From Eledone cirrhosa (lineage: Eukaryota), in assembly GCA_964016885.1 (NCBI GenBank), contig OZ024740.1, positions 115,382,001 through 115,446,000 on the forward strand: 64,000 bases of DNA, read 5' to 3'. The position numbers were made by a program, and so were the translations under genes. A model generated the notes under the pieces. That model was given only the letters and a program-made list of their open reading frames with translations. It searched no databases and was not told where the DNA came from. Each line of letters begins with the position of its first letter. Position 1 is the stretch's first letter. Positions 30,926 to 46,400 of the stretch are shown here, one piece after another.

Positions 30926-30976
30926 AGTTTCAGAAGATCCCGTTAAGGGTGAAAGCAGCGATTCTTTGCTTAAACT
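30926..30976 (+). ncRNA. Hammerhead-like motif with CAGAAGA (U4A) core
   Basis: agttt-CAGAAGA-tccc gttaa gggt-GAAA-gca...tgc-TT-aaact; the same core is present in all family C copies. Confidence 0.5.
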
Positions 30977-31320
30977 TTAATCTGTTATTTTAATAAATAT
31001 ATATATATATATATATATATATATATATATATATATATATATATATATATATTTATATATATACATGCATACATATATACACGCATATATATATATATAT
31101 ATATATATATATATATATATATATATATATATAGATAATTTAATATATCAACTAACATAAGCGCACAGATGCACGCCCATGCCAGCAAATACACAGGTTA
31201 TGTCATAGTACCTAGGTGGTTCAATGCAGGAGAATGCAGAACAATAATATAAAGGACGTAAAATAAGAAAATATTTTTTTAAAAAAATTAAAAAAAAATT
31301 TTTTTCTTACTTAAATTTTC

Positions 31321-31402
31321 ACTCCAACTAATTAGTTTCTGCAATGGGATAAAGACAGTTATGTAATCCAACTGTCGAGAATTCATTGCGTCATCAGGAA
31401 GT
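31321..31402 (-). ncRNA. Type I hammerhead ribozyme (family F)
   Basis: acttc-CTGATGA-c gcaatg...cattgc a-GAAA-ctaattag-TT-ggagt. Confidence 0.8.
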
Positions 31403-31562
31403 CTATTCTCAGTTAAGTCTCCAGGCAATGCGCGGACACTGATATATATATATATATGCATATATATATATATATATATATATATATATATATATATATA
31501 TATATATATATATATATATATGCATATATATATATATATATATGTATATAAATAATAATTAT

Positions 31563-32190
31563 ATGGTGGCTGCCAACTCGTTTTCGAGTACGGCCACTAC
31601 TTTATATCCATGTAGGAGAACCCCTACCGATGCGCTGAACGAGTGTGACATTTTAGTCCAGCCAGCAACTTGAAAACTTTGGTACAAACACTACACTTGT
31701 GACAATTATTGACACATAGTGCTGGGCCCATGGTACCATGTGACGACAAGTGCAGAGAGATCTCCAGATATAAAGCAATGCCTGTGTCGTGAAGCTTTTA
31801 TAGTGAACAAAGGCACTGCACAAAGCCAGTCCCACTCTCTTAACCAAGATGATATTTACCAAAAAGATGAACAAGTCAACATCATTGGATACCATCAGGG
31901 TTGCAGGTGTTATATCAGAGTTTTCCTTCTCCTAGAATTCTGCCTTGACAAAGGCTAAGGGGTCATCTCTCCCGGCGATTTTGGATGGCCATTGACTCTT
32001 AAGAGCTCCTTTGCCCTTTGACAGGTTTTGCTTTTAGTCCTGCAGGATATCCAAAGTCCATCTCCTCACCAAGAAACCTTGGTGGGTTTGCCAGTTTAGT
32101 CGCCAACGCCCCGACCATGAGACAGGTTTTACTGGGATACATGTTACCAGTAGCACCAACTGGTGACCTGACATCCTCCCGTTCGCTGGG
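31563..32190 (-). mobile_element. Non-autonomous RTE-5'UTR-derived element
   Basis: Homologous ends to 1767-2326 and 56527-56810. Confidence 0.55.
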
Positions 32191-33391
32191 AAAACGGTTT
32201 TCATTCTTTCTAACATCGGATGCACTAGCGGAAGGTCTGTTTTCTGACTCGCTCATATATTCACACAGCTTATGCTGAAAGAATAACTATGTTGCTTGTG
32301 TTTATTTCCATCTTCGGTTAGCTTCCCCCTGTGTTGTTTACTTGTCTCACTCGCTTTACGCGTTTCTATTGTCCTAATAACTTATTTTAGTTATTATCGC
32401 TCCAGCGTGAGGTATATGATTTTTAATGCGATGAAATACCCATGATCGTTTGGTAAATCACTGATGAGGGACTCATTTTATAACATGTTATCCATGTGCA
32501 ACCAGCAGTATTCTTCTCACCCATATTTTCATATATATATATACATACATACATACATACATACATACATACATACATACATACATACATAAATAGGTAT
32601 ATACATTATACATGCGGAGAGATTATATATATACATACATACATACACACCCACATACATGCATACACACACACAAACACACACACATACATTCATACAC
32701 ACATACACTCTCCCACACACACACATGCATACATATGTATATATATATATATATATATATATATATATATATATATATATTATATATGAAGATGTCTCTA
32801 GAATTATGGATACATACATTTCATGCCTACATATAGCAATGTAATGAAGCGTGTAATATTTTCCAACTAGATTATTCCTGATTCTCTCTTCCACCTCTGC
32901 TTTCTTCTTATGCCATATTTTTGCAAATCGTTCCCTTTGCTGCATTTTCCGCCTAATTTCTACTTAGTTTTCGTTGCATATATTCCAATATTCTTCATTG
33001 CTACAAGCACCATTTCTCCCATCAACGCCATCATCATCATCACCAACAAACTATCTATGTATATAGATATAGCAATGACAAAGTAATGTGTAAAGATGTC
33101 TTGTGTGTTGCTATGCATTAATCATGCGCTGTATCACTTAACTTGTTAATCTGAGATTAAGTCATGTCACCAACTTTTAAGGCCGTCTCTGATACAAATT
33201 GAAAAATAATAACATGGTGTTCGTTTCATCTCGCTCCTATGCATAGGTGTATGATTGGGTTGGTCAAGACTAGGCTATATGGATATATATGTATAGATGA
33301 GTGTATATGTGTAATGTGTATATACATATATATATATATATATATATATATATATATATATATATATATATATATATATATATATATATAT

Positions 33392-33546
33392 AGGAAAAGA
33401 GTCAGGACCCCGACAGCTGAGCTCTGGGCGTTTCGACAGCGAGAGTCGGGGTCCTGACTCTTTTCCTATTACCCACTCTACTGCGCCAAGTATCAAGTAC
33501 TGTGGTGCGTTATGGTCCACGTGGTTCCTTACCACACTTCCTTCGT
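33392..33546. mobile_element. Fold-back mini-element, family D
   Basis: taggaaaagagtcaggaccccgac inverted arms plus tail. Relatives at 6750, 11212, 28720, 45274, 49520, 55155, 58700 and 58820. Retains a hammerhead 3' half (GAAAC ggc...gcc GTC gggg at 49578-49604). Confidence 0.7.
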
Positions 33547-44018: not shown

Positions 44019-44065
44019 TGTATATATATATATATATATATATATATATATATATATATATATAT

Positions 44066-44591
44066 GAAAGACGTAAAATAAGAAAATAATAATAATTAAC
44101 TTACTTACTTAAGTTTCACTCCAACAAATGAGTTTCTGAAAGGGGATATACATAGTGTTTAAAACCATGGGGAATTCCTTTCTTCATCAGGGAGTCAAGT
44201 CTCTGCTAAGATCCCTGGCGATAGGCGGACACAGGGATCTCAAACAAAAATAATTCAGTGAATGGAAAAGAAGCAAGCGCGGACTAAATTTCAAGACACT
44301 GAAAATTTCACAACTTTCCCGGTCAGTGGCAAATTCAAAAGAATCAATCACGTGACATCGAGGTTAATCAGTGAGGAGTGGGGTGTTAAAAAGACAGTAG
44401 CCAAAATATTACTATGAATCATAGCAGTAATTCAGGCAAATTTTTGCTCAACAAATAATTTGGAGATAATTATAAAGAATTAGTATCCCTACCAACATAT
44501 TTATACAGAAGTATACTTATGCTAGCAAGATATATCTTGCTAGCATAAGTATACTTCTGTATAAATATGTTGGTAGATATATTAATTCTTT
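44066..44591 (-). mobile_element. Family F element with hammerhead (44118-44195) and terminal hairpin
   Basis: actcc-CTGATGA-a gaaagg...cctttc a-GAAA-ctcatttg-TT-ggagt; perfect palindrome ~44489-44576. Confidence 0.8.
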
Positions 44592-45069
44592 ATATATATA
44601 TATATATATATATATGTGTATGTGTGTGTGTATGTGTGTGTGTGGGGGGGGGGGGTATATATAAGTTATTGCGGGTTGAATCGGAGGTAACCACAGTAAG
44701 TAAGGTACTTAATACATAGCAGAGTATAAATGTTTTAATATAGTTCTATATTAAAACATATATATATATATATAGTTCAAGGGTAAGAGATTGTCTAGAT
44801 TAATGTATCCACAGTATGCGTGTTTGTACGATTATATAGGCGCAATCACTCAAGATCTGAGAGCAGAGTTGTTATAAGATCGATCCTTACCAGCCATATA
44901 CATATATATATATATACAGCCATCCAAATATGTATATATATGTGTATATATATGTGCATATGATATATATACATGTATATATATACATGTATATATATAT
45001 GCATATATTTATGCATATATGTATATATATATATATATATATATATATATATATATATATATATATATA

Positions 45070-45252
45070 TTAAAATATAAGTATTAATAAAATAGATGTT
45101 CTTTTGATCAATTACATTTCATTATACATATTTCGGATGTACAACAGTACGTCCTCATCAGACAATATATAATGATACATGACATACCCTGAGATGTTAA
45201 ATGGTTAAGATTTAATCAAGGTAGTACCTTGATTAAATCTTAACCATTTAAT
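45070..45252 (-). mobile_element. Family G mini-element with hammerhead (45119-45165)
   Basis: ttgt-CTGATGA-ggacgtac tgtt gtacatcc-GAAA-tatgta-TA-atga; short terminal fold-back; homologous to 47297-47455. Confidence 0.8.
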
Positions 45253-45459
45253 ATATAAATATATATATATATATAACGAAGGAAATGTGGTAAGGAACCA
45301 GGTGGACACATTTCCTTCGTTATCTAGCTCCTATTCCCGTAGTAGAGCACTTTCCGACCCTACCACGCCGTATCCAGACTTTTCCGCTAAGCTCAATTCA
45401 TTTCACCCGCACCACGGGGTCTTACCGGTTCCTATTATATATATATATTTATATGAAAT

Positions 45460-46400
45460 ATATGAAATATAAGAATCAAAGAACTGTTCAAAACATTATT
45501 GTGCTTACAGCTGTTTCCTCCAAACCGAGGTTTGGATTCTTCGGAGCAATTTATTAATGCATGGACAGTTATAAAGTTAACTAAAGAACACCAGACTACG
45601 ATCTCTAACTGGATTGTCGTGGATTATGTGAAAGGCATATAATCGAAATATACACTCCCTTGACCATGAAAATGCCGAAGTACATGAATTACTTGACATC
45701 CCTGCGTTGTGCATCTCCAATACTTATAACACTTTTAATGCTTGCACTATCTTTAATACTTATAATATTTCTCCACACACAGACTACATCAATCATATAA
45801 AGACTTTGCCACCAGATCTACCAACCTAACACTCTTATTTACCTACCTAAGTGCCTCTACCACACATATCTCTCTGCCACACTATATAAACAAGACGCAC
45901 ATGCGTGCCACACATATAACATTTGCACTATATAACCACTTATCTTCATGTTGTACTTTAACCTATATCTTTGATTTTTGATTGTACCTATTAATATAAA
46001 TGTAATCTCGAAGTGTGTACTGCCACTCTAAATTTTGTAATGAATGTTGACCCACAATGTTTGAATATGTATCAATGTTTGAATATGTATTGGTATGTCT
46101 CTCGGCTGAAAAGGAGGTCATATAACTGTCCATGCATTAATAAATTGCTCCGAAGAATCCAAACCTCGGTTTGGAGGAAACAGCTGTAAGCACAATAATG
46201 TTTTGAACAGTTCTTTGATTCTTATATTTCATATAACTGCTCTGTAAATCATCTGATGTTTTTACATTGAGCTACTTAACTTACTGGTAATAAGGTAGTA
46301 ATACATTACTGCCTACCACTATTTAGGGTGTGTGTAAAATACTTACAACTGCTTAAGGTTTTGTGTTTACATAACCATAAATAGTATAACTAATACTATA
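45460..46400 (+). mobile_element. Family H element: inverted arms with a hammerhead (46146-46192 +, 45502-45548 -)
   Basis: 45460-45573 is inverted relative to 46121-46233. tgct-CCGAAGA-a tccaaacc tc ggtttgga g-GAAA-cagctg-TA-agca. Confidence 0.8.

What the first reader, a model, noticed from the sequence alone, without database searches (positions are those of the whole stretch)
30926..46192. Natural panel of non-canonical hammerhead cores
Seen: TTGATAA and TTGAAAA (U3-A8; two unrelated families), CCGAAGA (U4C, both arms of family H), CAGAAGA (U4A, all family C copies), U10.1/U11.1 or other mismatches closing stem II (families B, C, F, H and 26675), and triplets GUC, GUA, AUA, GUU and CUU. 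Variants shared by all copies of a family are probably ancestral rather than post-insertion decay. Canonical CUGANGA searches would miss several.
Basis: partly seen in the sequence, partly recalled or inferred. Interest (0 to 1): 0.7.

Follow-up and report, generated by a model that had tools for sequence, protein, structure and literature searches.

The report
Variant-core hammerheads in Penelope-type retroelements
Many families of jumping genes in this animal genome carry a hammerhead motif, a fold predicted to cut its own RNA, and several have an altered core letter shared by the whole family; most such changes are published, but one (U4 to A, over 18,000 copies) was not found in print, and whether it still cuts is untested.

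Summary
Observation confirmed. The window holds about 30 type I hammerhead motifs from about 12 Penelope-like element (PLE) families. The variants are family-wide, not decay. U4A: 100 of 100 listed among 18,538 copies; only 162 copies lack A4. U4C: 98 of 100 among 3,489. U3-A8: 99 of 100 among 252, and 95 of 100 exact cores among 11,514. Diverged subfamilies keep C4 and A4 while loops and N7 change; in the C4 lineage stems covary. That points to selection on the fold. Against: a 212-copy U4A subfamily spread with stem II broken, A4 favours an inactive helix, and published PLE insertion in vitro needs no cleavage. U3-A8 in PLEs, U10.1-U11.1, a viroid U4C and the GUC/GUA/AUA triplets are published; all five triplets fit NUH. 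U4A was not found in print (10 searches; one key paper not held). This scan noted U4C, U3-A8 and a phage U4A core before on other DNA. Families C, H and J look like Hydra-clade PLEs; family C RNA likely starts at stem I. Cleavage is untested; no RNA data.

The parts
30926..30976 (+). Family C hammerhead, U4A core CAGAAGA, U10.1/U11.1, 3-bp stem II, 5-bp stem III, CUU; predicted cut after 30971; lies in the inverted arm of the insertion
29443..29493 (-). Family C hammerhead, sense copy near the 3' end; 29493 is the first base of stem I and the inferred RNA start
29335..30674 (-). 5'-truncated family C PLE: end of the endonuclease frame (30423-30674), 3' UTR, hammerhead, tail to +118
46146..46192 (+). 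Family H hammerhead, U4C core CCGAAGA, palindromic stem III, GUA
45502..45548 (-). Family H hammerhead, inverted arm, identical
31321..31402 (-). Family B hammerhead, canonical core, C/A at 10.1/11.1, long stem II, palindromic stem III, GUU
44118..44195 (-). Family B hammerhead, aged copy (A/A, palindrome damaged)
43089..43132 (-). Family F hammerhead, canonical core, U/U, minimal palindromic stem III, GUA
36274..38143 (+). Frameshifted PLE reading frame of family G (RT and GIY-YIG)
   Evidence: RVT_1 E 9e-5, below cut-off; GIY-YIG E 8e-5, above cut-off
38345..38387 (+). Family G hammerhead, canonical core, extra G after A9, CUU, 208 nt behind the GIY-YIG frame; further copies at 35860(-), 42455(-), 42617(+)
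45122..45165 (-). Family I hammerhead, canonical core, AUA; second copy at 47388(-)
38935..38985 (+). Family L hammerhead; A6G here is decay, GUC
26675..26725 (+). Family K hammerhead, U/U; G12U here is decay
48868..48914 (+). Family J hammerhead, U3-A8 core TTGATAA, GUC
9844..9931 (+). Family A hammerhead, U3-A8 core TTGATAA; six copies between 7675 and 11112
7348..7383 (+). Family A2 hammerhead, U3-A8 core TTGAAAA, GUA; further copies at 7267(-), 55717(-)

Best explanation
These are type I hammerhead motifs in the terminal repeats of many Penelope-like retroelement families, and the odd core letters are inherited family traits that likely give slow but still working self-cutting RNAs. Shown: each variant is the family consensus; A4 and C4 persist across diverged subfamilies while N7 and loops change, and stems covary in families H, B and K. 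Inferred: selection acts on the transposing master copies and keeps the fold; the ribozymes cut slowly, as dimers through palindromic stem III (H, A, A2, B, F) or as monomers (C), probably helped by the element's protein; copies that insert come from RNA not cut at that site, so a weak core costs little. In family C the RNA likely begins at the first base of stem I, 160 nt ahead of the reading frame, so a cut would remove a 45-nt leader.
For: Family C: A4 in 100 of 100 listed of 18,538; non-A4 162 copies, T 37, G 38, C 25 of 100 listed, i.e. mutation level. An older sister about 70% identical upstream keeps A4 in 10 of 11 loci; its consensus differs at 0 of 22 stem and core places that the search pattern left free and at 4 of 12 loop places (Fisher p 0.011). 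Family H: C4 in 98 of 100 and 88 of 100 in 2,124 older copies; the 6 T4 copies among 61 need 6 separate changes on the tree, as CpG decay would; stem II pair A-U 25, G-C 8, unpaired 5 of 38; cells changed on both sides 12 against 3.5 in shuffles, 0 of 500; stem III switches between two palindromes. Family B: C/A in 12 of 12, next pair G-C in 12 of 12, the following pair uses all four Watson-Crick types. Family J: 9 of the 11 deviating cores among 100 change N7. Published: U4C and U/U keep some activity (PMC3088659); PLE hammerheads are slow, dimeric, protein-assisted (PMC4209133, PMC11167929).
Against: No cleavage or RNA data. A family C subfamily of at least 212 copies spread with two of three stem II pairs broken. 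In the isolated 51-nt motif A4 pairs with U11.1 in a predicted helix that hides the core (P 0.56, stem I 0.07; with U4 0.04 and 0.18), though this fades with more context. Family C stems are conserved but do not covary; 57 double changes at 10.2/11.2 are mixed. The same 50 nt probably hold the promoter start, which could also conserve them. Hammerhead mutants did not affect PLE insertion in vitro (PMC11167929). The shuffle control ignores relatedness, and search patterns fixed many columns.
Confidence: 0.6

Rival explanations
1. The U4A (and perhaps U4C) motifs are dead ribozymes fixed by founder effect; the elements transpose without cleavage, and the sequence is kept as promoter start or protein-binding fold.
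For: Broken-stem-II subfamily of 212 copies; predicted inactive helix with A4; cleavage not needed in vitro and no RNA ends at the cut site in an anole PLE (PMC11167929); Naiads spread without canonical hammerheads (PMC8557442); 1,056 copies begin exactly at stem I.
Against: Changes between subfamilies fall on N7 and loops and spare the catalytic bases; H keeps palindromes and covarying stems, which a DNA promoter would not need; the broken subfamily is about 1% of family C.
Confidence: 0.25
2. A4 is kept because C3-A4-G5 forms a 3' splice acceptor behind a pyrimidine tract, so splicing removes half the core from the message, as an intron end overlaps the D. virilis Penelope hammerhead.
For: Pyrimidine-rich run and CAG at the core; three donor-like sites in the 3' UTR; precedent in PMC4209133.
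Against: None of 30 fetched copies that begin near the core shows a donor joined to it; most are inversion joints. Pyrimidine content is no higher than at four nearby AG sites. If RNA starts 7 nt upstream there is no intron in that transcript.
Confidence: 0.1
3. The variants are post-insertion decay or chance matches.
For: A few window letters are decay (G12U at 26681, A6G at 38943, G8C at 86).
Against: Genome-wide counts and shuffles.
Confidence: 0.02

Closest known systems
Hammerheads of Penelope-like elements (Cervera and de la Pena 2014, PMC4209133; seen: abstract, results, discussion, start of methods)
   Same: Type I topology in terminal repeats, many families per genome, minimal palindromic stem III, extra base after A9, U3-A8 core (about 1,300 hits in Schistosoma).
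   Different: That paper describes a conserved G10.1-C11.1 and no U4 change in the text seen; here U4A, U4C and fixed U/U or C/A closures occur. Family C has a 5-bp stem III. Scale here is roughly several hundred thousand motifs against up to 9,000 there.
Natural core variants of hammerheads (Perreault et al. 2011, PMC3088659; seen: section 8, passages, text search of 11 supplements)
   Same: U3-A8, U10.1-U11.1 and viroid U4C are listed as natural and active or partly active.
   Different: No U4A in main text or text-held supplements (figures not visible). That study rejected core mutants in repeats as cryptic mutants; here they are family consensus with covariation.
Hydra clade of PLEs (Craig et al. 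2021, PMC8557442; seen: section 11 and passages)
   Same: C-terminal endonuclease, DKT motif, CxCx5C linker, CxxC and CxH, (TA)n targets, 3' hammerhead.
   Different: Reported with canonical hammerheads; families C, H and J here carry U4A, U4C and U3-A8. Unit about 3.3 kb.
Anole Poseidon element PAc (Frangieh et al. 2024, PMC11167929; seen: main text and start of methods)
   Same: Two 3' ends (here +29 and +118), both-strand insertions, uncut RNA as template.
   Different: In PAc the reading frame starts in stem II; in family C it starts about 160 nt after the cut site.
Small PLE hammerhead variants that cleave as dimers (Lunse et al., PMC5785218; seen: title only, in a reference list)
   Same: Reduced stem III, PLE link (title and review PMC6765202, passages).
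   Different: Not held; it may already list U4 variants.

Membership tests
Type I hammerhead ribozyme | Three stems around CUGANGA and GAAA, ends in stem I, NUH triplet | tested here: met
   with the stated substitutions
Type I hammerhead ribozyme | Canonical core C3 U4 G5 A6 N7 G8 A9 | tested here: not met
   families C (A4), H (C4), A, A2, J (U3-A8); met in B, D, F, G, I, K, L
Type I hammerhead ribozyme | Stem covariation among relatives | tested here: met
   H, B and K; family C shows conservation only
Type I hammerhead ribozyme | Match to Rfam hammerhead models at curated score | tested here: not met
   0 matches in the window, canonical ones included
Type I hammerhead ribozyme | Site-specific self-cleavage | not testable with these tools
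   no RNA run listed
Endonuclease-bearing PLE | RT plus C-terminal GIY-YIG frame, hammerhead in the terminal repeat, tandem and inverted copies, tail | tested here: met
   family G; family C; H and J linked to related RT or endonuclease; A, A2, B, F, K, L not linked to a frame here
Hydra clade (family C) | DKT motif, CxCx5C linker, CxxC and CxH around E and N, (TA)n targets | tested here: met
   read from translations against section 11 of PMC8557442; flanks
Hydra clade (family C) | RWK motif; absence of CCHH | tested here: inconclusive
   reads RWR; CCHH judged absent by eye only
Hydra clade (family C) | Placement in an RT tree with reference PLEs | not tested
   no reference set fetched
Non-LTR retrozyme | Non-coding tandem units of about 170-400 nt | tested here: not met
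   families C, G, H, J are coding PLEs; a separate 310-nt tandem family was seen in L037 and L096

The most novel reading that the evidence does not exclude
Hydra-clade PLEs keep deliberately braked hammerheads: in family C the transcript starts on stem I and A4 pairs with U11.1 to hide the core until the element's protein refolds it, so a U4A core that should be crippled is a selected, working natural variant, and C4 is likewise held against frequent CpG reversion to the textbook U. The genome would then be a covariation-backed library of natural core variants and a direct test of what PLE ribozymes are for.
Probability: 0.25. Interest if true: 0.72.

Novelty: new variant of a known kind. Interest (0 to 1): 0.47.

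Why it matters
U4 is counted among the invariant core bases, and surveys discard U4 mutants in repeats. If U4A and U4C motifs cut, descriptor searches miss about a fifth of the motifs in a genome like this one, and the tolerated sequence space of the core is wider than listed. Whether they cut or not, they bear on an open question: what hammerheads do for Penelope-like elements. Natural pairs (variant against canonical sister, intact against broken stem II) make that testable. Most of the other letters in the panel are already known.

Tried and rejected
DNA search of the own genome with 81 nt found nothing because common words are skipped; patterns were used instead. Rfam by E-value returned microsatellite hairpins among the 150 listed of 442. 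Repeat finder was swamped by microsatellites. No RNA holder listed; contigs of four runs cannot show ends, and the two low-depth runs of other labels were not used as evidence. Insertion starts at the cut site as a test of activity: uninformative, since canonical families also lack them (within 3 nt: K 1 of 63, D 1 of 60, G 1 of 39, F 0 of 35, I 0 of 12, B 0 of 25; C 6 of 268, H 0 of 50). Coding overlap as the reason for A4: rejected, frame starts at about +160. Spliced genomic copies: 0 of 30. A trade-off between stem III strength and core variant: not consistent (H has both a minimal stem III and C4). Pairing of base 4 with 11.1 as a general rule: holds for C and young H only. Pattern scan of viral contigs: 28 hits, 1 weak fold, taken as chance. 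Phage protein search: no match. Folding z-scores are near zero for 3 of 5 motifs and add nothing. Family A was not counted genome-wide (4 homologous rows).
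Full report
Setting. The window is G000:C1:115382001-115446000 of a 3.0-Gb animal genome, AT-rich and full of microsatellites. It holds fragments of Penelope-like elements (PLEs), including a frameshifted RT plus GIY-YIG frame at 36274-38143.

Observation. A descriptor scan found 16 strict hammerhead folds against 0-3 in each of 6 shuffles. A looser scan and family patterns give about 32 motifs of about 12 families. The U3-A8 cores lie outside the given range and belong to three families. Three window letters are decay. Rfam finds nothing at curated scores.

Genome scale. In 80 random 10-kb stretches (67 from the three largest contigs) the scan gave 137 hits against 7 in one shuffle: 95 canonical, 14 CAGAAGA, 9 TTGA(T/A/G)AA, 2 CCGA(A/T)GA, 17 others (many chance or decay). 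Fifteen hits come from two tandem arrays. A rough extrapolation is several hundred thousand motifs, about a fifth with variant cores.

Are the variants family traits? Patterns that fix flanks and leave the core free say yes. Family C: 18,538 matches, A4 in 100 of 100 listed; non-A4 copies 162, split T 37, G 38, C 25 among 100 listed. Family H: 3,489 matches, C4 98 of 100, T4 2. Family J: 252 matches, U3 100 of 100, A8 99 of 100. Family A2: 11,514 matches, exact core 95 of 100, no C3-G8. In loci not chosen by their own pattern, B reads C after A9 in 10 of 14 rows and A before GAAA in 14 of 14, and F and K read U/U in most rows. Reversed-pattern controls gave 0 in every genome search.

Is there selection? 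Fixation only shows that the master copy had the letter. I therefore looked at diverged subfamilies. Family H: 2,124 older copies with U7 read C4 88, T 10, A 1, G 1 of 100. On a tree of 61 copies the 6 T4 rows need 6 changes, as scattered CpG decay would. On 38 distinct rows (39 of the 61 were aligned, dropping near-identical young copies) one stem II pair switches A-U to G-C, with 12 double-changed cells against 3.5 in shuffles; stem III alternates between two palindromes. The tool warns that relatedness inflates such scores, and my patterns fixed many columns. Family B: 12 of 12 copies keep C/A and then G-C, and the next pair shows C-G 2, G-C 1, A-U 6, U-A 3. Family K covaries in stem I. Family C: a pattern with U7 gave 264 matches, A4 in 94 of 100, part of them an older sister (11 loci picked by eye for their different loop 2). 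Its consensus is 86 of 122 identical upstream and differs from the young motif at 5 of 51 places: N7 and four loop bases. Counting only places left free by the pattern: 0 of 22 stem or core against 4 of 12 loop (p 0.011). Related elements from two metagenome contigs carry canonical cores, one with U/U (2 of 3 loci), so A4 is likely derived.

Evidence against function. A family C branch of at least 212 copies has two of three stem II pairs broken and its own diagnostic flanks. Family C stems do not covary. In the isolated motif, A4 allows a 5-bp helix between the stem I/core strand and U11.1-GAAA (P 0.56; 0.04 with U4); with 75 or 163 nt of context both this helix and stem I are predicted rare. 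In the anole element, hammerhead mutants did not change insertion in vitro and cleavage needed the protein (PMC11167929).

The elements. Family C is a 3.3-kb unit with RT, a C-terminal endonuclease, DKT, CxCx5C and CxxC/CxH motifs, matching the Hydra clade as described in PMC8557442; H and J sit beside related frames (42-44% RT identity). Family C copies end at +29 or +118 from the predicted cut, in (TA)n. In tandem copies the frame starts at about +160, so the motif is non-coding.

RNA start. At least 1,056 copies begin exactly at the first base of stem I. The base before it is G in 53 of 100 listed, against 18 of 100 one place further (p 3e-7). In 30 fetched loci 17 have G, 14 of them not explained by the neighbouring arm. 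This fits a reverse-transcribed cap at a start site in TTAGTT (TCAGTT in the old sister); the initiator likeness is recalled, and several added letters read TCAG, so slippage is an alternative. D. virilis Penelope has an internal promoter (PMC2377424, passages). In random loci such starts are a minority (3 of 27). Starts at the cut site are rare in all families, so inserted copies come from uncut or rejoined RNA and say nothing on activity.

Mechanism. Most likely (0.6): slow, conditionally active ribozymes kept by selection on master elements; dimer cleavage where stem III is a palindrome, monomer cleavage for C; protein help likely. Shown: sequence, counts, covariation. Inferred: RNA start, selection, cleavage. 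Rivals: dead motif kept for another use (0.25), splice acceptor (0.1), decay (0.02).

What is known. U3-A8 in PLEs and the extra base after A9: PMC4209133. U3-A8, U10.1-U11.1 and viroid U4C: PMC3088659. GUC, GUA, AUA: PMC1636495 (abstract); NUH consensus. U4A: not found in searches or in 11 text-held supplements. Figures were not visible and Lunse et al. is not held, so absence from print is unproven. Also seen without bearing: PMC3376415, PMC6155905, PMC7229834, PMC6765202 (passages), bioRxiv 10.64898/2026.07.22.740005 (first fifth). Notes of this scan report U4C-type cores in this and another genome and a U4A core in a phage type III motif; these are unchecked leads.

Verdict. Real, well above chance, and inherited. 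A new variant of a known kind. The useful new parts are U4A at high copy with signs of constraint, U4C held through covarying subfamilies, and a likely transcript start on stem I. Interest 0.47, limited by the lack of any cleavage data and by how much of the panel is published.

Noticed in passing
G000, family C; window 29493(-) and 30926(+); L275-L304: Over 1,000 copies begin at the first base of stem I, often with an extra G or TCAG in front; likely a capped transcript start. Family K copies also pile up at stem I (29 of 63 within 4 nt).
   Followed up: partly
L173-L180, L141, L143, L159: Family C branch of at least 212 copies with broken stem II; homology to the young element ended about 450 nt upstream in the loci seen, so it may be non-autonomous.
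   Followed up: partly
L037:3650-4600 and L096 (minus strand, about 310-nt period): Tandem arrays of a 310-nt unit, each with a canonical minimal hammerhead: a likely non-LTR retrozyme family.
   Followed up: no
L061, L097, L107, L054, L043: At least four more U3-A8 families, one with U10.1/U11.1 and a 9-bp stem I.
   Followed up: no
L067 (minus strand, near 2678 on that strand): One CCGTCGA core with a palindromic stem III and long stem II, behind a Hydra-type endonuclease remnant; resembles the CCGTTGA core noted earlier by this scan.
   Followed up: no
window 7594-11189: Six family A units of about 591 nt in tandem and inverted arrangement, 97-100% identical.
   Followed up: no
window 26930-27720, 12704-13297, 2766-3278: Fragments of non-LTR retrotransposon frames (RT end, a likely endonuclease piece, zf-RVT).
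   Followed up: no
window 28940-29040, 39203-39383, 44475-44590, 45194-45254: Many short perfect fold-backs, apparently two arms copied from opposite strands of one element meeting in the middle.
   Followed up: no
family G, window 38349 and L044, L048, L067: Stem III insert is not palindromic, and the triplet varies between CUU and CUA across subfamilies.
   Followed up: no
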